DNA of 64,000 nucleotides, from assembly GCA_044892525.1 (NCBI GenBank), contig CM097885.1:189472001-189536000 (forward strand), written 5' to 3'. The notes below the pieces were generated by a model. The model made no database searches. It had not been told where the DNA came from and worked only from the letters and a program-made list of their open reading frames with translations. The stretch is from Schmidtea polychroa. Taxonomy: Eukaryota. Shown here piece after piece: positions 2,268 to 64,000 of the stretch (position 1 is the stretch's first letter; every line of letters starts with the position of its first letter). The translations under genes were made by a program, and so were the position numbers.

Positions 2268-3099
2268 TTTATCATTATTATTTTTATTGATTATATTTTA
2301 TTACCTATTTTTCTCATTGATTATTGATCAACATCATTATTGATTGTTATTAAATATTATTAATTAGTATCAATATTTGTTGTTTGTTCTGATTATTATT
2401 ATTACAAATATGCCTATTGAGCCTACTGGTGATCAACAATGATCGACATTACTTTAATATGTATTGAACTCATACAACATGAGAAAAAATATAATTTACT
2501 CAGAAATGAATCCAGAAATGTCATTGGAATATGTAATTGACGAGCAGAATTGGTTTACCAGTGTAGATAGCAGTGGTGATGGCGATAGTACGCAATTATC
2601 AGATTTAACGCACGAAACTGCCAATCAAATGGAAACCGATAACCAAAAAACTGTCATATCCAAGGCAACCAAAAGGAAGCTGTATACAGAACACAGCCCC
2701 TCCTTTATTGACCAATCTATAAGTATATTATAATTAATCCTCCCACAGAGAAATATATCCATTGCAGGCATCATCCTTGAAGATATATCTACTGTCAACC
2801 ACCCGTTGCGATTGGATTCATCCATTACACGTCTGGCTGCCAGTAAGCGTTGTCATGGAAATGTTTTGATTTTGTCTGTCATATCTAGAGTCCAATGGCG
2901 ATTACAGAAACCATTCGCAAGATTCCGAATCTGGTACATTCACGCTCTCCATTTATCGTATTGATTATTTGCAGAGTCATTAACTATTGGTAATTTATCG
3001 AATCGATTAAATATTCGCAATCATTCAAATTCAATTGGTGAGATTTTGTAATATTTTATTGATTTCAATTTATAATTGTCTAAATTAAAACAAAGTTTA

Positions 3100-3460
3100 A
3101 AAATTACGCATCAAACAATTTTTAAAATCCACATTAAAGCAAAATTAAATATTTCACCTAATTAAAACAAAATTCAAATTAATTTACCTCATTAAAACAA
3201 AAATTAATAAACCAGATCAATTAAATAAAATTTCTTCAACAACTTTTGACAAATGCCAATTTTTAAACAAAAATATTTCACCTTATTAAAACAAAAATCA
3301 AATAATTCATCTCAACATAAAATATATAAATCAAATCAATTAAATTATTTTTGACAAATGTCAATTTTTAAAAACAATCTCATTAAAACGAAAAAATCAA
3401 ATATTTCACCTAATTAAAACAAAAGTCAAATAATTCACCTCATTAAAACAATTAATATTA
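3100..3460. repeat. About 3 imperfect tandem copies of a ~126-bp unit
   Basis: AAATATTTCACCTAATTAAAACAAAA..TCAAATAATT motif recurs near 3147, 3273 and 3399. Confidence 0.65.
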
Positions 3461-3576
3461 AAACATTGGATATATTGTCACATTAATTAAAATAAAATAA
3501 TTGAAAAACGCTAAAAATTGACAGACCACCGCCACTGATAATACCGACAAAAAGAAATACAAAACTCACTTCTTCC

Positions 3577-4314
3577 TTATTGCAAATTAGCCCTTCGCCT
3601 CAAATATTTCAGCTTGTCCGGTTCTTCTTGATACCCCTGTACAATAGTATCTACTTGTTCATGTAGGGCTTCATATTTTCTTCGCTTCACCTCTGGTTGT
3701 CCCATTATAACTCTTTCCAAAGTGTGCTTGTGGCATGCAAGATACTTTTCGATGCCTTCCAGCAATATCCAGACACTTGGATGGCTGCAATAGAAAATTG
3801 AGTTCAAAGTATTGTGAAAACCTTCACAGCAATTAGTGGTTTTTGGGGACCTTATCATTGCAAATTCTGATGGGAAATTGTGGATCCCTTCCAACTGCAC
3901 CTTCAATGTATATTGAGAAAATCCGGAATTTATCCGGAATGTATATCATCATCCGGAAATGTATCTGCTACTTCAATTCAAATAACAATAAAAATATAAC
4001 TAGATTATGACAAAGAAATTAATTGAAAATATTGACCAAGAAATTAATTGAAAATATTGACCAAGAAATTAATTGAAAATATTGACCAAGAAATTAATTG
4101 AAAATATTGACCAAGAAATTAATTGAAAATATTGACCAAAAAGAAATATAAAATCACTTCCTCCTTTTTGCAAATTTGCCATTAGCCTCAAATAAGTTGA
4201 TCTAGTTTGAGCGCACTTGCCATGTAACCATAAAGGTTCAATATAATTTTTTTTGCTTTTCACTAATATTCCTAATGCTGATATGGCTCTTGAGGTATTT
4301 GACAAACAACCCAA
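3577..4314 (-). pseudogene. MULE/Mutator transposase C-terminal remnant (frameshifted)
   Basis: PKTTNCCEGFHNTLN...HPSVWILLE matches the MULE RTNNxxEGxHxxxN/HPxIW motif; upstream frame gives YIEG..PQFP. Confidence 0.7.
4009..4139. repeat. 25-bp tandem repeat, ~5 copies (GACCAAGAAATTAATTGAAAATATT)
   Basis: Near-perfect period-25 array seen directly. Confidence 0.95.
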
Positions 4315-54984: not shown

Positions 54985-55894
54985 TGTTAGGTTCGATAGG
55001 TAGGTAGTCGAACTAACACAAAAAATCTGACTCCAAATAAATAATTTATGCGTGTAGGTAATAAATAAGAAATATGATTTAAAACGTTTATTAACAATAA
55101 AATTTACAGGATTGTTTATTTTTGTACAAATAAATCACGCTGCTCTCTAAAGGAAAGAAAACGGTTATACAAACCGTCCTGAAGAGTATTTCTAAGAATC
55201 AAGGCTGGCCCTAAATGCGCCAACAGCCCGATATAGGTGAACGGAAAAGAGATAGGGAAGTTTACCAAATTTTTACGCGATGGAGTTAACCCAGAAATTG
55301 GTTAACTCTTTTTCAACAAATATTAATAGCGAAACAACACAAAAATACGTGCTGACGCTATGGCTTCCCTTATTTAAGTTTAATTTAATTTAAACAAATA
55401 AGTCTTTTATGCAAATATTTGATAATTATTTAAATAATTGATAAAACTAACTAATTTGATCTCTTTCTAAAATGGCTCCAAAGAATATTAAACTCAATTC
55501 ACGAATATTCAAAATTAATTCCTATTGATCGGTATATCTAATATCACTTGAAATTCTCCAATCGGATTGAAGTTTTTGAATGAAGTAAAATTCCAATTAA
55601 TTTTCTCTCGCTCGATGAACTTCTGACTATAGTTAAATTCCTAAATTAGTTTTATTTCAGAATCGGATTGATTTTTTCTATCTAAATTTAGCTCCTGTGG
55701 TTTTTTCTTAAATTCACTTATCTCGATTTCGTCCTCCTCGATCAATGAAATTTTTCTGGTATTTATATGACTTTAGTTATATCAAATCTATTAATAGTAA
55801 TTATTAATTACTATTTTTATTGTATATTTATTTTTAGTAATTATTTATTACTTAAACCCAAACTTTTGATTCTGGTTCCTACTGAACCCCAACA
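54985..55894 (-). mobile_element. 3' LTR (910 bp)
   Basis: TGTTGGGG...CCTAACA termini on the minus strand; follows PPT AGGGGGAAGA; homologous to 27422-28173. Confidence 0.85.
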
Positions 55895-56419: not shown

Positions 56420-57847
56420 TCATTGGTATTGGGTGACTTGGAGGCAGTTATCGTCTGCACTCTCACAAGTGGCATAGTCTTCTTCATCAGCAATTGAGAT
56501 GGCTGGCGGCGACAAGGAATCTTCTTCCACTATTTTCTGCAATTTTGACCTGGGAATATCTTCTTTTACATAGCTCTCCATAGCTAAAGGTTTCTGCATG
56601 CTTGAAGTTCCGGGTTCCATCTGCTTTATTTGTGAAGACACCACCTCTTTCCGGGTGTCTGGTGAAATGTCATCAACCCAGATATCTCGTAAATTGTCGT
56701 AAATCTCCTTAATGGTTGTGACATCATTCTCCGTTTGAAGGTCCGAGAAGTGATGTGCCTCTTTACCGGTGACTGCTTTTGCCAGATATGCCAAACGGTA
56801 ATACCCGTTGCATTTCTTTAAGTCCCTACTTTCGAGACATTTAGCTGTGCCTAACTCACGGATTCCGAGTGCGCGCTGGATTGGGAATTTGATTACTTCT
56901 AATAAGTCCTTTACTAGCAATCCCACGATGATTTTCCCATCGCAGATTTTCCTAATTCTTTCGGCACAGTCTTCTCCGTCGAACTGTCCTGTTATTTCTC
57001 TCTCGGTCATACCATGCGCATGCGATTGGTAATGTTTGACCTGTGCTCTGGGGGTAACTCTCGTGTTGAGTATCAGATCGCCATTGAAATGTGAGATTGA
57101 GATGGCCACAATTGCCGGTTTCAGGAATTGTCGTAGTGTAGCGTAGTGAGCTTCTACGAAAATGGTGAGATTATTTTCTTGTCTAGGATCCAAGCGCTGT
57201 CTAATGAAAGACTTAAACGTTTTGATGTCGGTATCATTAACGTTATATGTCCAATTTGGGTCATTAACCCATCTCGTTGGTGTTTCTCTGTGAGGTTCCA
57301 GAATTTCCATTGCTACTATGGTATCTATTCCCTCACATAACAGTGAGATGTTCTTTTCCCTTCCATCCCCGTTTTCAATTTCCAGGGTTGTATGCTTTTG
57401 CAGCAAAATGAGGTTTGTGGCACCAGGAACATAAACCGTAAATGGTTTGTTGATGGCGTGTATCCACAGGTGGTTGGTCAGACTATGTCTGCCAAACTCA
57501 GGCATGACCTCGGTAAGCCTAATACTACCGTTATGCTTGCCCGGTATTCTTGAGATAATCATTTGACGCTTTGGGGCTTCGTCAAATTTAAAATTATTGG
57601 GTATGCCTGAGCAATGTCCGTAAAACCAGTGCCTTTGCCCTTTTCTGCTTTGCTCTATTACCTGCTTCTCGAGGTTTTTGTAAATAAGTTTTTCTTTTAG
57701 CAAGGTCGTAGCACGTATAATGCTATGTCTTCCTTGGTATTGGGATATTGGGTGGCTCTGCATTCCTGAAATAAAAATCATTAACCATAATATCAGATAT
57801 ACTGATATGCCATAATAGGCTAAACAGATATGCATGAGTCTTATCAT
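56420..57847 (-). CDS. ORF2: N-terminal signal/TM plus REX4/ISG20-like DEDDh exonuclease fold (degenerate catalytic motifs); tail continues out of frame at 56098-56394
   Basis: AIVAISISHFNGDLILNTRVTP..VKHY..HGMT..., GKIIVG..KDL, IRE, LAYLA and ENDV..IKEIY parallel REX4 motifs. Confidence 0.75.
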   Translation of the reverse strand: MIRLMHICLAYYGISVYLILWLMIFISGMQSHPISQYQGRHSIIRATTLLKEKLIYKNLEKQVIEQSRKGQRHWFYGHCSGIPNNFKFDEAPKRQMIISRIPGKHNGSIRLTEVMPEFGRHSLTNHLWIHAINKPFTVYVPGATNLILLQKHTTLEIENGDGREKNISLLCEGIDTIVAMEILEPHRETPTRWVNDPNWTYNVNDTDIKTFKSFIRQRLDPRQENNLTIFVEAHYATLRQFLKPAIVAISISHFNGDLILNTRVTPRAQVKHYQSHAHGMTEREITGQFDGEDCAERIRKICDGKIIVGLLVKDLLEVIKFPIQRALGIRELGTAKCLESRDLKKCNGYYRLAYLAKAVTGKEAHHFSDLQTENDVTTIKEIYDNLRDIWVDDISPDTRKEVVSSQIKQMEPGTSSMQKPLAMESYVKEDIPRSKLQKIVEEDSLSPPAISIADEEDYATCESADDNCLQVTQYQ

Positions 57848-57961
57848 AAAAGATCTACATATGCTGAATTTTAATGCTACCTGGAGCTCTACGTAAATAT
57901 AGATTTTAAGATATATATAAATATTTATATATGATTTTTCCCTCGGTGGAGTCTGTAATTG

Positions 57962-60900
57962 TCATAATTGCGACATCAGTACTCCATCGTAAGCCCTTAT
58001 GGCTTGTCTGAAATATAGCTTGGTCCAAATCCCCATAACTATCAGTGTAGTTATTAGTGATAGTACGGCCGATACCGTAATCCATACCCCTATGGGTATT
58101 TTCAGAATATATCCTGCATTAAAGTTTGTGATGGCATTACAGTCACAATAGTTTGTCAGGTTTGGGGTCGTTGGACAAGATATTTGTTTGATCGGTGGTA
58201 ACTGTCTAAGATGTTGCCACATCGCGGGATGTATCACCATGTTCTCCCGGACTACTTTTGGTGGTGTTTTCGTTATAACTGGCTGTTTCAGAGGTAATAT
58301 CTCCTCGAATACCTCGAACCACCTATCGTCCTGCCGTTTCCTCGGACTATAGTATATAACTAGAACCGAATATTCTACGGACTGATTTAGATACATTTCT
58401 TGGGAGGGAGAGTTCTGGTCTAACCATAATGTTTCTCTCGTGGTTGGTCCGTCTAGAATGCTGATTTTCACCTTCTCCTCCCTGCTAATTTGCTGGCTAA
58501 ACTTTACTTTATCCTTTTCGTAGGATATCGATATGCGATTTGTAAAATCCGCCGTCCTTAGTATCCAATTTGATACGTGATAGGTATACCAACCGCTCTG
58601 ATATAACCGTGACGCTGCGATATGCAGTTTATAATCCGTCTCTGCTTTTAAATCATATAATTCCCACTCTTTTTCTTCTGAATTGAGTTGGCGGATCCGC
58701 AAGTACTTGTTGTAGAAATGTAAATTGAATTTTGTAGCGTTATCGCACGTGGTGAGTATGCTAATTCCGTGATACGTTCTTATAAAATGTAAGTGTTCCA
58801 CTTGCATAGCCATAGGCTGAAAATATGCTTTTCTATCCCTTTTTGCCATTGCCAAAGTCATCATGCAGCTTATTATCAACAAAAAGGTTACTGATTTTGG
58901 AACACCCCTTGATCTCAATGGGTATCGGTGTTCTTGTGCTTCTTCGGTAATGTTTGGTTTCACCTGTTTTTCTAGTGCTTTTACTTTTGAATTTCCAGAA
59001 GTTCCTTTTGTTGGGATTTCACACTTTTTACACCGGTTAGCATGTACCATTATTGGTTCTGCTTTTCTGTTGGCCACAAGTTGTAATATGAGATTTGTAT
59101 CTGTGGTTCTCAATACCTCATATGGCCCTTTGAAATTTCGCATGAGTTTTGGTGATAAGCCTTTCTTGTTATAATGACTTTCCAACATCACCTGGTCTCC
59201 AACCAATATGCCATGATCCTTGGCTTTTCTGTCATGATAATCTTTGGATGCCTCCTGATTATATTTTATACTGAGGCCTGCTCTAGCCCATGCTTCCTGC
59301 ATTCTTTCCCTCATTTCCATTAGATAATCTTCCTGGTCTAAATACTGTGTTGCTTTAGGGAAAAACAACAGATCTACTGGCATTTTACTTTGCCTTAAGT
59401 ACATTAGGTAAAATGGTGTTTTACCTGTTCCTTCGTGCACTGCATTCCTGTATGCAAATAAACAGGATGGAATGTGGATGTCCCAATCCGTTTGCCCTGA
59501 ATTTACATATGATGCTAACATATTAGCTAATGTTCCATTAAATCGTTCTACTAGCCCATACGTCTGTGGGTGATATGGGGAAGTATTCAGCTTTAAAACT
59601 CCAAAATAATCATTTATTCCTTTGAGCAAATTACTCATGAAATCAGCTCCCCGATCCGTTAATAACTTTGTAGGTACTCCATACCTAAAGACGATTTGTT
59701 CAACGAAGATTCTAGCTATTGTATCAGCTTTGTGATTAGGCATCGGGTAGGCTTCTGGCCACTTCGTCAAGTAATCGCAGAACACTAAAATGTACTTGTT
59801 TCCGCTATTAGATTCTTTGAATGCCGTCATTTCCATAGGTGTAGATGGTACTGGCATCGGCTTCATTGGTACGTGTGGTTTCTTTCCGGTGTTTCTTCTG
59901 GTGATACAGATCTTACATGTCTGACACCAGGTTTTAACATCTTGTTTCATACCGGGCCAAAAATATTTTTGTTTTAGCCTTGACAATGTTTTTCTAGATG
60001 ACAGATGGCCTCCTAAGGCTCCATCGTGATACTGAAACATGAGTGCTTCACGGTAATTCTTAGGAACCATTATAACGTTATCTCTTACATCTGAGTATTT
60101 AACTAATCCTTCCTCCAGCACAAACTTGTCTTTATTCTTTTCCCAGTATTTTGTGAATTCTGTGGGCACGTATTTTGCTTCCAAGGCTTGACGAATAACG
60201 TTGATTTCTTCGTCAGATTTTTGTGCCTCCATTAAATCAGCTAGCCGGTTGGCTTCTCTGGTCAATGTGAAGATAGTCCCTTCGAGACGTCCTTCCTTCA
60301 CATCCTCTGCTTCCTCCTCCTGGTCCATTCTCGATAACGCGTCTGCATTTCCATTATGATCTCCCTTTCTATAATGGATTTCTATGTCATATGGCTGTAA
60401 AATAAATGCCCATGTGACTAGTTTTGATGTATCCATTGTGTGTTTTGTTAACCACTGTAATGGTCTATGATCGGTGTACACTATGATCTTTCGACCCGAA
60501 AGATAAGTTCTAAACTGGGTTATAGCATACACAATTGCTAAAGCCTCTAGTTCTATCACTGCGTAGTTTCTCTCGTGCGGTTTTAACCCTCTGCTAGCGT
60601 ATGCAATTGCATACTCATCTCCTAGGTCATCTCTCTGACCTAGCACAGCACCTATGCCCCGAGTGCTGGCATCTGTCATAACTAAAAATTGTCTCTCAAA
60701 GTCTGGAAATCGCAATATAGGTGGCTTGACGAGTTTTTCCTTGAGCATATCAAATGCTTCTTGCTGTTCTGTTCCCCACACAAATATGACGTTTTTGCCT
60801 TCTAACTGCGTGAGTGGAAAAGCTATAACCGAGAAGTTTCTAATGAACTTATTATAGTATCCAACTAGGCCTAAAAACCCTTTGATATGTTTAACGGTTT

Positions 60901-63900
60901 TAGGTTCCGGGAAATTCTTTACCTTTTCAACATTAGCTGGATCGGGTTTAACCCCGTCTCGTGATATGATATGGCCAACATATACCACTTCTGGTTCAGC
61001 CCATTTACATTTGGTTGGTTTCACTTTCATGTTGGCGTTGATCAACCTCTTGAATACATCTTCTAAATGTTCCAAGTGTTTTTCCAAATTTGGCGAGAAT
61101 ACTATGACGTCGTCAATGTATACCATCGCATGATGTACATCCATGAGCATCAAATTCATTGCTCTTTGAAATGTGGCTGGAGCTCCTGTGAGTCCAAATG
61201 GCATTACGTTATATTCGTAATGACCCATACTCGTAGAGAACGCTGTTATTGGTATAGTCTCATCTTTTAACTTAATTTGATAGAATCCCTTTTGGGCGTC
61301 CATTACTGAGAAGAACCTAGCATTTCTCATACGTCCATAGATATAATCTAACAATGGCAATGGATGGCTATCTTTGCATGTTGCTTCATTAACCATGCGA
61401 AAGTCGTTACATAATCGTACTGATCCATCCTTCTTGGCCACCACTATCATTGGTGATTGATATGGTGATTTACTATGCCTGATTATGCCATGTTTTAACA
61501 TCAATTCCACCTGTTTATCTACTGATTCCTCCAGACTGAATGGAATACGGTATGGTCTCAACTTTATAGGTTTTGTATTGGTGAGAACAATCTCATGTTC
61601 TAACAAGTTTGTTTTTCCCAGATCGTATTCATGTTTTGCGAATACCTGGTCATATTTCCTCAATAGCATATTTACTTGGATGTTTTCCTTTCTGGTTAGC
61701 ACTTTGCTATTTGCCGTAGGTGCATCGTAGTACTCAATGTCTGGATCTCTTTCTTCTGCCTTTACGGTGAGTATCGACCCTTCTCCCGTGGCTTGTGGCT
61801 CGTTTTGTTTCCAGATTCTGCCCACTCTGGTATTTGGATATAAGTAAAGTGGTTTAATGTCCAGATTGGCTACCCTGATTGGTATTCTGCCATTGACTAT
61901 TAAACCTACGCTATGAGTAACTGGTATGTTGTATTTCTCCGAAAATCTTTCGTCTGGTTCGAATACAACTTCACCTTCCCAATTATTGCTTGTAGCTACA
62001 AAACATACTGTTTCTGCTCTGGGTGGTATGATAGTTGTATGATCTATATAAGCTGTATCATCGTTGTAAATTTTTCTCTTTTTACCTCGTGCTCGGATTA
62101 ACAATCCAGATGCACAATCGAATACTACTCCTCGTAGTCTTTTTAGGATGTCCATACCCAATAGACATTCGGCTGGGAGACTTCTCATCACTATGATGTC
62201 GTGATGGAGCTCTTGATCACATAGCTTAATCTGGCAAGATAATGATCCTATTACATTTAATGAGGATCCGTTTGCTCCTGTTAATTTTACTCCTGCTGGT
62301 TTTAGCGACTGCAATTCATGATGGTTTAACAGTTTAGCTTCAATTATGGTACCATCTGCTCCTGAGTCTATCACCGCATTAACTGTATGTCGGTTCACTC
62401 TTATTTTTATCATTGGCTTTTTATCCAAATTCACTGGGTTATTGACCATCAAGATAGTATCGTGCGAGATGCCGACTGTATTGGCTCTCGTTTGTTCTGC
62501 TTCCAGTAATTCAGGATCACTCAGTTGAGGATTATACTCTTTAAATTTAGCTTTAATTGAATCTAACGCTTCCTTTGGATAGTGCACTTTAGGTAATTCT
62601 GGCAATGTTGAGCATGTCAAATTATTAAATATGGTATCTTCACCGATTTTCCATTGGTGTCGTCCTGTTCTGAGTGTTGTTTCCCTTGAATGTTCCCGCC
62701 CTTCGTTTGGTGAGGATGGTAAACTCCTCAGAGTTTGCAATTGTACATATCTTGGGCTTCTCTTGAATCTGGGTGACCTTAAGTCGTATTTTTGGTCGGA
62801 ACTGTCATATTCTCCTTCTGATGACTGTTTTTTCACGTAGATTTCCTTTGATTGGTCATATGGAGGAAGATATTCCTTAAATCTCGATTTTCTTTGTTGC
62901 TGAATCGGTTTTTTGTTGTAGTTCTGTTTTCGTGATTGATTTGATCTTGAGGATGTTTCACGAGAGCCTCCATTACCTCCTCCCTTAGAATTGTTATCGT
63001 CCCGATAACTAGAATACTCCTCCATTTCTGTTCCAATTACTTCATGTTTGACCAAATGTTTCTGTCTAATTTCTTTAATTTCCTTTCTGTGATGTTTGAA
63101 TAATGCAAACTCTGCACACATAGGACATAGTCCTAATAGCAGTTTCCATGACCATCCTCCAATTTTGAATATGCTATATGTTGACATCAGTTGTGTAATT
63201 ATCAGCTTTAAAATTACAAATATTGCGTAAATTTCTGAACATCCCGCAACGAATATACCAAAATTGGTAAATCGTCCCCATATTTTCATCATTACGTTCT
63301 TTGCTGCTTCTTTATAGTGTTCCGGTCCAAATAATAGATTGTAATCTGGTCGTATTAAGCTATCATGATAAATTGTTCTTATAATTTGCGTGATACCTCT
63401 GTCTCTGATTTGTGGGAATAGCAATGTTCTACTTGCTTCCTCGATATCGTCGGGAGTGTAAATCCCTCCTTTTGCTAATTCGTCCAGTGACTTGAATTCC
63501 AGATTATCTTTTAGTTTAGTTACCTCCAAGGTCTCTACCCGTTGTGTAGATGGTTTTCTTTCCGGCAGGGATATCCACATGTCATTTATTTTGTATAATG
63601 GTGATATTGCCGGGTTGCATATAGCTGGTTGAGGTTTAGCGTTTTCCTCCAGTAACTTTCTGGTTACAGGCATAACAAATCTCAATTTTCCCTGGTAAGA
63701 CACTGGCAGTTCTAGAGTGCACTGATTAAATCTGGCTAATTGTACTTCCACTGGTTTACACTCATAGCTATATATAGCTTCCCCCATGATTCTGCCAAAC
63801 ATTCCGTCTTCCAATAACATTGGAGTAACCAACTCTGGGTTAACGATAGATCTATTTCTGACTATTTCACAATTTAACTTGCAATCGTTTAGTATCACCT

Positions 63901-64000
63901 CTTGATACATATCCTGCATTTGTCCTTGGAGGTCGTGATATAAATAATCTACTTTATTATTTATATAATTCGTGATTTTGATATCCTTTACGTGTAAGAC
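57962..64000 (-). CDS. Polyprotein: chuvirus-like glycoprotein + TM, linker, protease (~62130-62410), RT (YIDD ~61109-61120), RNase H, integrase, signal peptide, Fn3-like ectodomain, TM
   Basis: 1985-aa ORF; I translated the 27 upstream codons to 64000 and they are also open; motifs VIDSG, LDAQKGFYQ-like, YIDD, TDAS, IELEAL, TDH, H..GH..CxxC, TDRG, VERFN, GPY. Confidence 0.93.
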   Translation of the reverse strand, partial: VLHVKDIKITNYINNKVDYLYHDLQGQMQDMYQEVILNDCKLNCEIVRNRSIVNPELVTPMLLEDGMFGRIMGEAIYSYECKPVEVQLARFNQCTLELPVSYQGKLRFVMPVTRKLLEENAKPQPAICNPAISPLYKINDMWISLPERKPSTQRVETLEVTKLKDNLEFKSLDELAKGGIYTPDDIEEASRTLLFPQIRDRGITQIIRTIYHDSLIRPDYNLLFGPEHYKEAAKNVMMKIWGRFTNFGIFVAGCSEIYAIFVILKLIITQLMSTYSIFKIGGWSWKLLLGLCPMCAEFALFKHHRKEIKEIRQKHLVKHEVIGTEMEEYSSYRDDNNSKGGGNGGSRETSSRSNQSRKQNYNKKPIQQQRKSRFKEYLPPYDQSKEIYVKKQSSEGEYDSSDQKYDLRSPRFKRSPRYVQLQTLRSLPSSPNEGREHSRETTLRTGRHQWKIGEDTIFNNLTCSTLPELPKVHYPKEALDSIKAKFKEYNPQLSDPELLEAEQTRANTVGISHDTILMVNNPVNLDKKPMIKIRVNRHTVNAVIDSGADGTIIEAKLLNHHELQSLKPAGVKLTGANGSSLNVIGSLSCQIKLCDQELHHDIIVMRSLPAECLLGMDILKRLRGVVFDCASGLLIRARGKKRKIYNDDTAYIDHTTIIPPRAETVCFVATSNNWEGEVVFEPDERFSEKYNIPVTHSVGLIVNGRIPIRVANLDIKPLYLYPNTRVGRIWKQNEPQATGEGSILTVKAEERDPDIEYYDAPTANSKVLTRKENIQVNMLLRKYDQVFAKHEYDLGKTNLLEHEIVLTNTKPIKLRPYRIPFSLEESVDKQVELMLKHGIIRHSKSPYQSPMIVVAKKDGSVRLCNDFRMVNEATCKDSHPLPLLDYIYGRMRNARFFSVMDAQKGFYQIKLKDETIPITAFSTSMGHYEYNVMPFGLTGAPATFQRAMNLMLMDVHHAMVYIDDVIVFSPNLEKHLEHLEDVFKRLINANMKVKPTKCKWAEPEVVYVGHIISRDGVKPDPANVEKVKNFPEPKTVKHIKGFLGLVGYYNKFIRNFSVIAFPLTQLEGKNVIFVWGTEQQEAFDMLKEKLVKPPILRFPDFERQFLVMTDASTRGIGAVLGQRDDLGDEYAIAYASRGLKPHERNYAVIELEALAIVYAITQFRTYLSGRKIIVYTDHRPLQWLTKHTMDTSKLVTWAFILQPYDIEIHYRKGDHNGNADALSRMDQEEEAEDVKEGRLEGTIFTLTREANRLADLMEAQKSDEEINVIRQALEAKYVPTEFTKYWEKNKDKFVLEEGLVKYSDVRDNVIMVPKNYREALMFQYHDGALGGHLSSRKTLSRLKQKYFWPGMKQDVKTWCQTCKICITRRNTGKKPHVPMKPMPVPSTPMEMTAFKESNSGNKYILVFCDYLTKWPEAYPMPNHKADTIARIFVEQIVFRYGVPTKLLTDRGADFMSNLLKGINDYFGVLKLNTSPYHPQTYGLVERFNGTLANMLASYVNSGQTDWDIHIPSCLFAYRNAVHEGTGKTPFYLMYLRQSKMPVDLLFFPKATQYLDQEDYLMEMRERMQEAWARAGLSIKYNQEASKDYHDRKAKDHGILVGDQVMLESHYNKKGLSPKLMRNFKGPYEVLRTTDTNLILQLVANRKAEPIMVHANRCKKCEIPTKGTSGNSKVKALEKQVKPNITEEAQEHRYPLRSRGVPKSVTFLLIISCMMTLAMAKRDRKAYFQPMAMQVEHLHFIRTYHGISILTTCDNATKFNLHFYNKYLRIRQLNSEEKEWELYDLKAETDYKLHIAASRLYQSGWYTYHVSNWILRTADFTNRISISYEKDKVKFSQQISREEKVKISILDGPTTRETLWLDQNSPSQEMYLNQSVEYSVLVIYYSPRKRQDDRWFEVFEEILPLKQPVITKTPPKVVRENMVIHPAMWQHLRQLPPIKQISCPTTPNLTNYCDCNAITNFNAGYILKIPIGVWITVSAVLSLITTLIVMGIWTKLYFRQAIRAYDGVLMSQL

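What the first reader, a model, noticed from the sequence alone, without database searches (positions are those of the whole stretch)
63130..64000. Captured chuvirus-like class III fusion glycoprotein located upstream of the protease
The segment YINNKVDYL...MYQEV..DC.L...GEAIYSYECKPVEV...CTLELPVSY...FVMPVTR.L...CN...PLY...W...LAKGGIYT..D...LLFP follows the cysteine and motif spacing I recognise in chuvirus/jingchuvirus-type glycoproteins. These are gB-like and known to have been captured by BEL/Pao elements in insects. A hydrophobic TM follows (~63189-63263). A Gypsy-order Pol carrying this glycoprotein on its 5' side would be an independent capture in an unusual position.
Basis: partly seen in the sequence, partly recalled or inferred. 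Interest (0 to 1): 0.85.

Follow-up and report, generated by a model that had tools for sequence, protein, structure and literature searches.

The report
Fusion gene inside planarian retroelement
This is a real gene for a protein predicted to fold like the herpesvirus membrane-fusion protein gB, placed between the capsid and enzyme genes of a many-copy retrovirus-like element in what is likely a planarian genome; that arrangement is already published, so it is a new family member, not a new capture.

Summary
They are the C-terminal half of a 617-aa envelope protein: Pfam Monjiviricetes_fusion E 6e-54, a confident model (pLDDT 90), best fold matches chu-like virus glycoproteins (E 6e-36) and herpesvirus gB (E 1e-14). 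It belongs to a 14-15 kb Ty3/gypsy-type LTR element with at least 40 copies, under purifying selection (57 synonymous to 10 replacement shared changes). The inferred single polyprotein reads Gag, two ubiquitin-like domains, Bcl-2-like, Env, PR, RT, RH, IN. This is known. In-frame env between gag and pol was described for planarian Burro (PMC6431247), and gB-type Gag-Env-Pol errantiviruses in flatworms (PMC13524379), whose Smed_errantivirus_4 is a sister (115 of 185 residues identical, counted by eye). This env groups with other Gag-Env-Pol envs, so it is not a capture peculiar to this element. The window's copy is defective. Not found in the papers searched: a conserved second membrane protein after integrase (fibronectin-III-like, lead only) and an ISG20-like exonuclease ORF that is likely spliced.

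The parts
63257..64000 (-). C-terminal half of the Env ectodomain (the finding): central helix and C-terminal domains of a predicted gB-like class III fusogen
   Evidence: PF24664 E 6e-54; model pLDDT 90 with a 45-residue central helix; Foldseek gB E 1e-14; 57 synonymous to 10 replacement shared variants in 38 copies
63098..63256 (-). Env transmembrane anchor (63200-63256) and a second short hydrophobic stretch
   Evidence: hydropathy scan; 11 synonymous, 0 replacement shared variants
64000..64000 (-). The element runs on beyond the window's end, in the neighbouring stretch L011 (minus strand, L011 places): N-terminal half of Env with its internal signal (1-951), Bcl-2-like domain (about 1030-1400), two ubiquitin-like domains (about 1770-1990 and 2310-2514), Gag (about 3000-3994), tRNA-Trp primer site (4073-4090), 5' LTR with its outer end missing (4094 to about 5010). 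Gag to Bcl-2-like is broken in this copy.
   Evidence: PF24664 profile 4-207 E 4e-19, Retrotrans_gag E 0.002, zf-CCHC E 4e-10; profiles built with sister families match ISG15/ubiquitin (E 7e-6) and Bcl-xL (E 6e-4); LTR and primer site
62129..62425 (-). Aspartyl protease, in frame with Env behind a cytosolic linker of about 220 aa
   Evidence: Pfam RVP and gag-asp_proteas
60389..61438 (-). Reverse transcriptase and RNase H
   Evidence: RVT_1 E 4e-32, RT_RNaseH E 1e-34
59000..60067 (-). Integrase (zinc-binding domain, core, C-terminal part); the core carries an in-frame deletion in this copy
   Evidence: Integrase_H2C2 and rve; comparison
57962..58915 (-). Second predicted type I membrane protein at the end of the polyprotein: signal-like stretch, beta-rich ectodomain (fibronectin type III-like, lead only), transmembrane helix at about 58028-58084
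   Evidence: hydropathy; homologues in three sister families at 23-24% identity; 85 synonymous to 52 replacement shared variants; Atlas fn3 neighbours at 0.88 and 0.93; low-confidence model
56420..57763 (-). ORF2 (shortened in this copy) with an ISG20/ISG20L2-like exonuclease fold at about 56666-57169, behind an AG acceptor-like site
   Evidence: profile of four copies from families A, C and D matches ISG20L2, E 1.7e-12; purifying selection from the ATG onward
54985..55894 (-). 3' LTR (TG...CA), preceded by a purine-rich tract
   Evidence: 99.7% identical over 869 bases to the 5' LTR in L011

Best explanation
The stretch is the C-terminal half of the envelope gene of a Ty3/gypsy-type LTR element, and its product is predicted to be a herpes-gB-like class III membrane-fusion protein that is likely made as the middle part of one long Gag-Env-Pol polyprotein. 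Shown: the gene, its place in frame with the protease, the copies, the purifying selection, and the LTR, primer site and target duplications. Inferred working: the roughly 3,350-aa chain starts in the cytosol (Gag, two ubiquitin-like domains, Bcl-2-like domain). An internal signal would thread Env into the ER lumen; signal peptidase would free its N-terminus and leave the signal as a membrane anchor on the Gag precursor. The Env transmembrane helix would return the chain to the cytosol, where the element's protease would release PR, RT-RH and IN. A second internal signal would make a second surface protein. Gag, Env and Pol would so be made one to one and tethered to the same membrane, giving enveloped particles that fuse with other cells of the animal and carry the element into stem or germ cells. 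The window's own copy is defective.
For: Profile: PF24664 covers both halves. All 33 of 33 PDB sequences matched by the env profile at E up to 1 are herpesvirus gB, though weakly (best E 0.013). Fold: pLDDT 90.3; all listed PDB rows are gB (best E 1e-14); the top viral rows are chu-like and related glycoproteins (E 6e-36, TM up to 0.74). 13 of 14 cysteine columns conserved in at least 90% of 97 rows are kept. Selection in the finding stretch: shared variants 57 synonymous to 10 replacement, singletons 30 to 56 plus 4 stops; 30 of 38 copies have no stop or frameshift there. One frame: the window copy is open from before Env to the end (2393 aa), another copy from Gag through Env to RNase H (2595 aa); sister-family copies have unbroken frames of 3334-3437 aa. 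Four alternating hydrophobic segments fit the topology (family B; three of the four pass the threshold in the window copy). LTRs, tRNA-Trp primer site and 4-base target duplications in 5 of 5 copies checked. Same layout in PMC6431247 and PMC13524379.
Against: No test of fusion, trimer formation, particles or cleavage. TM-scores to gB are only 0.32-0.43 with rmsd 12-19 A, as expected for hinged long proteins but not a tight match. None of the 11 family-A copies read in full has an unbroken Gag-to-end frame, so the single ORF is inferred from overlapping open frames and from sister families. The signal-like stretch before Env did not reach the hydropathy threshold in the window copy. The window copy has two stops and two frameshifts upstream of env and has lost one conserved env cysteine.
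Confidence: 0.8

Rival explanations
1. Env is a true class III fold but no longer serves cell entry. It is kept for an intracellular role, such as tethering the capsid to ER membranes or cell-to-cell passage inside the animal, and the element transposes without free particles.
For: Purifying selection shows a function, not which one. One-to-one synthesis with Pol is unlike retroviral env expression (established knowledge).
Against: The whole ectodomain, its cysteines and the anchor are conserved across families only 44% identical; N-terminal half 32 synonymous to 3 replacement shared variants.
Confidence: 0.13
2. A recent, independent capture of a chuvirus glycoprotein by this element.
For: Closest named folds are chu-like virus glycoproteins. 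The env lies apart from the insect stand-alone glycoproteins in the tree.
Against: The nearest sequences are envs of other Gag-Env-Pol polyproteins at 36-44% identity against 20-25% for full-length stand-alone glycoproteins. Sixteen rows form one group with SH-like support 100; 9 of its 11 outside proteins carry a protease or RT after env. Already in print.
Confidence: 0.04
3. A chuvirus-derived endogenous viral fragment that merely lies next to a Gypsy pol, or an assembly artefact.
For: None beyond the window ending inside the gene.
Against: Same frame as the protease; 39 other copies 95-96% identical; paired LTRs around Gag, Env and Pol in 7 of 11 copies examined.
Confidence: 0.01

Closest known systems
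Smed_errantivirus_4 and the Gag-Env-Pol HSV/gB-type errantiviruses of Platyhelminthes (Chary and Hayashi 2026, PMC13524379; seen: abstract, part 1 of section 5, section 6, passages, rows of supplementary files 2 and 3)
   Same: Gag-Env-Pol order, gB-type Env, listed span 14.9 kb; 115 of 185 residues identical without gaps in Env domains I-II (counted by eye). Sister family B of this genome matches Smed_errantivirus_2 at 116 of 120 residues (by eye).
   Different: A distinct family (62% in that stretch). The main text has no occurrence of Bcl, ubiquitin, fibronectin, exonuclease, polyprotein or splicing, and lists no LTR or primer site for the Smed elements; here the primer is tRNA-Trp.
Burro / GYPSM1 giant Gypsy-like elements of planarians (Arkhipova and Yushenova 2019, authors recalled; PMC6431247; seen: section 7 whole and passages)
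   Same: Single polyprotein Gag, ubiquitin-like, BCL-2, Env with mononegavirus glycoprotein hits, PR, RT, RH, IN; described there as the first in-frame env between gag and pol.
   Different: Burro exceeds 30 kb with a 4,873-aa ORF carrying MATH, BIR and ankyrin domains. This element is 14-15 kb, shows no such Pfam hits, ends in a signal-ectodomain-TM protein and has an exonuclease-like ORF2.
Chuvirus / Monjiviricetes glycoproteins and their BEL/Pao captures in mosquitoes (Dezordi et al. 2020; seen only as search listing, and as cited in PMC13524379)
   Same: Same Pfam family and predicted fold.
   Different: Only 14-19% identity in the best fold matches; carrier is Ty3/gypsy-type; env lies before pol; separate branch in the tree.
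Non-canonical nematode endogenous retroviruses (Sacco et al. 2022; seen only as cited in PMC13524379, paper not held)
   Same: Env placed before pol in a Ty3/gypsy element.
   Different: Not compared here.
Bdelloid LTR retrotransposons with DEDDy exonuclease ORF3 (Rodriguez et al. 2017, PMC5408684; abstract only)
   Same: An extra exonuclease ORF after pol.
   Different: Here the match is to ISG20/ISG20L2, and the catalytic positions are altered in this family while largely kept in sister families C and D.

Membership tests
Class III viral fusion proteins (gB, VSV G, gp64) | gB-like ectodomain fold with a long central helix | tested here: met
   Model pLDDT 90.3, helix 306-350; Foldseek gB E 1e-14, TM 0.32-0.43; profile matches only gB in the PDB, 33 of 33
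Class III viral fusion proteins (gB, VSV G, gp64) | N-terminal signal, cysteine-rich ectodomain, C-terminal transmembrane anchor | tested here: met
   13 of 14 conserved cysteines kept in this copy; the signal is read by eye here and passes the hydropathy threshold in family B
Class III viral fusion proteins (gB, VSV G, gp64) | Trimer | not tested
   Only a monomer was folded
Class III viral fusion proteins (gB, VSV G, gp64) | Membrane fusion activity | not testable with these tools
   Needs a bench assay
Monjiviricetes / chuvirus-type glycoprotein | Pfam PF24664 above its cut-off over most of the profile | tested here: met
   183.5 and 68.4 bits for the two halves, cut-off 27
Monjiviricetes / chuvirus-type glycoprotein | Descent from within Chuviridae | tested here: inconclusive
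   Top fold matches are chu-like but also qin-, xinmo- and rhabdo-like; the tree held no named viruses
Ty3/gypsy LTR retrotransposon (Metaviridae) | LTRs TG...CA, tRNA primer site, purine tract, target-site duplication | tested here: met
   4-base duplication in 5 of 5 copies with whole LTR ends
Ty3/gypsy LTR retrotransposon (Metaviridae) | Order PR-RT-RH-IN | tested here: met
Ty3/gypsy LTR retrotransposon (Metaviridae) | RT groups with named Ty3/gypsy references | not tested
   No named references were on hand
Gag-Env-Pol HSV/gB-type errantivirus (PMC13524379) | Order gag, gB-type env, pol between LTRs | tested here: met
Gag-Env-Pol HSV/gB-type errantivirus (PMC13524379) | Env homologous to the listed flatworm members | tested here: met
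   115 of 185 identical to Smed_errantivirus_4, by eye
Gag-Env-Pol HSV/gB-type errantivirus (PMC13524379) | An intact copy with all ORFs uninterrupted | tested here: inconclusive
   0 of 11 family-A copies read in full are unbroken; most copies were not read in full
Burro / GYPSM1 | Ubiquitin-like and BCL-2-like domains before an in-frame env | tested here: met
   significance comes from profiles that include sister families
Burro / GYPSM1 | Giant size (over 30 kb, ORF near 4,900 aa) with MATH, BIR and ankyrin cargo | tested here: not met
   Span 13.9-14.9 kb; no such Pfam hits
BEL/Pao with chuvirus-like glycoprotein | Pao-type Gag/Pol domains with the glycoprotein after integrase (domain names recalled) | tested here: not met
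   Only Ty3/gypsy-type Pfam families hit and env lies before the protease

The most novel reading that the evidence does not exclude
These flatworm elements are two-glycoprotein retroviruses: one polyprotein crosses the ER membrane four times and yields both a gB-like fusogen and a separate fibronectin-III-like surface protein that binds the target cell, a division of labour like herpesvirus gB with its attachment partners. A spliced ISG20-like exonuclease, apparently catalytically altered in this family, would act as an accessory counter-defence factor.
Probability: 0.3. Interest if true: 0.7.

Novelty: new member of a known kind. Interest (0 to 1): 0.3.

Why it matters
As flagged, it matters little: gB-type env between gag and pol in planarian Gypsy elements has been in print since 2019 and was surveyed in 2026. 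It adds a family, a primer tRNA and direct evidence that the env is under purifying selection. What could matter is the conserved second membrane protein after integrase. If it is an attachment protein, it would explain how a gB-type fusogen in a retroelement finds its cells, and planarians allow RNAi and imaging of these very abundant elements in stem cells.

Tried and rejected
Stop-codon readthrough into ORF2. The ORF1 stop is TGA followed by CAATTA in 31 of the 31 copies that cover it (38 examined), ORF2 is in the same frame, and this resembles a readthrough context recalled from plant viruses and Sireviruses. Against it: the 66 codons after the stop show 1 synonymous to 6 replacement shared variants, families B, C and D have other stop contexts, and all four families have an AG acceptor-like site just before the ATG. 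Splicing is favoured; readthrough is not excluded. Expression: no RNA holder listed. Contigs of three runs laid on a family copy showed no splice joint, and a depth dip over the linker in one possibly-RNA run is not evidence. Single-sequence search of Env against PDB: 1 match, E 0.85, irrelevant. Second membrane protein: no Pfam hit, no homologue among 439 candidates of similar length, no meaningful PDB profile hit, model pLDDT 39.6; its fold search gave Ig-like, Fn3 and C2 sandwiches at Z 6.5-8, within the background, so Fn3 stays a lead. The first tree did not finish and had dropped the polyproteins; it was redone with FastTree on 60 rows, using 40 of 80 stand-alone proteins, with no one-clade test. 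The first tRNA pattern found nothing. A search with P0002 returned mostly family B and one further family. A dUTPase-like domain between PR and RT, reported for Burro, was not tested. No complex was folded. Literature searches for the extras listed no paper on them by title or abstract start; Grohme 2018, Jurka 2007, Sacco 2022 and Repbase entries were not seen and may describe them.
Full report
Observation. The minus strand of the window holds one open frame of 2012 aa from the window's end to 57962. A transmembrane-like 19-mer lies at 63200-63256. Protease, RT, RNase H and integrase follow in that order in the same frame.

The element. The window is G000:C1:189472001-189536000. The finding has 39 further matches at 95-96% identity among 40 candidates scored of 285. 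The neighbouring stretch L011 supplies the rest: the N-terminal half of Env, Gag with zinc knuckles, a primer site and a 5' LTR 99.7% identical over 869 bases to the 3' LTR in the window. The primer site is complementary to the 3' end of host tRNA-Trp genes. Paired LTRs were found in 7 of 11 copies read in full, spanning 13.9-14.9 kb; 5 of 5 copies with whole LTR ends have a 4-base target duplication. The window copy is open for 2393 aa from before Env to the end, another copy for 2595 aa from Gag through Env to RNase H. None of the 11 is unbroken throughout, but sister families hold natural frames of 3334-3437 aa with the same order. A single ORF of about 3,350 aa is therefore inferred. The window copy is defective: two stops and two frameshifts upstream of env, one conserved env cysteine replaced, in-frame deletions in env and in the integrase core, a shortened ORF2 and a clipped 5' LTR.

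The glycoprotein. The 617-aa Env has 1181 relatives at E up to 0.001 among cluster representatives. The best are envs inside Gag-Env-Pol polyproteins (36-40% identity), then stand-alone glycoproteins of about 650 aa at 20-25%, two of them in clusters named from insects. A profile of 97 sequences matches only herpesvirus gB in the PDB (33 of 33, best E 0.013). The ectodomain model has pLDDT 90.3. Foldseek lists only gB chains in the rows shown (E 1e-14, TM 0.32-0.43) and chu-like, qin-like, xinmo- and rhabdo-like glycoproteins among viral models (E 6e-36, TM up to 0.74). Across 38 copies the finding stretch shows 57 synonymous to 10 replacement variants shared by two or more copies, against 30 to 56 among singletons; RT shows 46 to 9. 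The env has been selected as strongly as RT in the lineages that transposed.

Capture history. A FastTree tree of 60 rows (5 from this genome, 15 longer proteins, 40 of 80 stand-alone proteins) puts the genome's four families and 11 outside proteins in one group with SH-like support 100, apart from the stand-alone proteins and from P0094, whose upstream DUF5641 domain suggests a BEL/Pao carrier (recalled). No named virus was in the tree and no one-clade test was run. The result argues against a capture by this element and does not count captures.

Other cargo. Between Gag and Env lie two ubiquitin-like domains (profile of six domains from three families; ISG15 E 7e-6) and a Bcl-2-like domain (Bcl-xL E 6e-4 for a five-row profile; Pfam Bcl-2 E 3.7e-5 in family C and 0.008 in B). 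This family alone gives no Pfam hit there. After integrase comes a signal-like stretch, a beta-rich ectodomain and a transmembrane helix, conserved in families A-D, with similarly placed hydrophobic pairs in P0006, P0009 and P0018, and under selection (85 to 52). Atlas neighbours are fibronectin type III domains (0.88 for this copy, 0.93 for family B with a low recognition value), but the model is poor, so the fold is a lead. ORF2 matches ISG20L2 (E 1.7e-12 for a four-row profile; 2e-9 for family C alone). The acidic catalytic positions are largely kept in C and D and altered in A, family B lacks this ORF in the stretch read, and it is under purifying selection from its ATG onward (55:18, 54:26, 52:34, 37:16). 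An AG acceptor-like site precedes the downstream ATG in all four families, while the 66 codons after the ORF1 stop show no protein-level selection (1:6), which favours a spliced message over readthrough. Public runs did not settle this.

Mechanism (inferred). Alternating signal and stop-transfer segments would put Gag, the ubiquitin-like and Bcl-2-like domains and Pol in the cytosol and two ectodomains in the lumen. Host signal peptidase and the element's protease would cut the chain. The Gag precursor would stay anchored by the Env signal, coupling capsid assembly to Env-bearing membrane, and the resulting particles would enter other cells by class III fusion. None of these steps was tested.

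What is known. PMC6431247 (section 7 read whole) describes planarian Burro as Gag, ubiquitin-like, BCL-2, env with mononegavirus glycoprotein hits, PR, dUTPase-like, RT, RH, IN in one ORF and calls it the first in-frame env between gag and pol. PMC13524379 (abstract, part 1 of section 5, section 6, passages and supplement rows) reports Gag-Env-Pol gB-type errantiviruses in nematodes, bryozoans and flatworms and lists six from Schmidtea mediterranea. Number 4 is 115 of 185 identical to this Env and number 2 is 116 of 120 identical to family B (both by eye), which also makes the host likely a dugesiid planarian. Exonuclease ORFs in LTR elements are known from rotifers (PMC5408684, abstract). The post-integrase membrane protein and the ISG20-like ORF were not found in the main texts of the two papers or in the listings; primary Burro descriptions and Repbase were not seen.

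Verdict. Observation confirmed; interpretation partly supported; new member of a known kind; interest 0.3. The open, more novel reading is a two-glycoprotein envelope (probability 0.3, interest 0.7 if true).

Noticed in passing
window 57950-57964 (-): The ORF1 stop is TGA followed by CAATTA, a readthrough-like context (recalled), identical in 31 of 31 covering copies, with ORF2 in frame; the next 66 codons vary little but not like coding sequence.
   Followed up: yes
L065/L066, L069-L072, L111-L114: Three sister families (B, C, D) share the layout and the tRNA-Trp primer site. B has many copies with unbroken frames of about 3,330 aa, lacks the exonuclease ORF in the stretch read and nearly matches Smed_errantivirus_2.
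   Followed up: partly
L111/L112: One family-D copy has an internal deletion that joins the post-integrase ectodomain in frame to the exonuclease (3565-aa frame).
   Followed up: no
window about 62780 and 58915; families B and D: A Y-x-L-R-S motif recurs after the Env tail, before the second signal and near the start of Gag; a possible protease site or chromatin-binding motif.
   Followed up: partly
G000:C4 from 55022433 (L150): Tandem array of tRNA-Trp genes with a 284-base period; the pattern has 856 matches in the genome.
   Followed up: partly
L011 8729-9952 (+): Two ORFs that look by eye like a RING/zinc-finger and TRAF/MATH-type host gene.
   Followed up: no
L011 6800-7980 (-): Fragments of an unrelated Gypsy-type element (gag-like and integrase-like pieces) upstream of the 5' LTR.
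   Followed up: no
P0018 (unnamed 3243-aa relative): Its N-terminal region before Env looks by eye like a DEDD-type exonuclease, and it ends in a different signal-ectodomain-TM unit.
   Followed up: no
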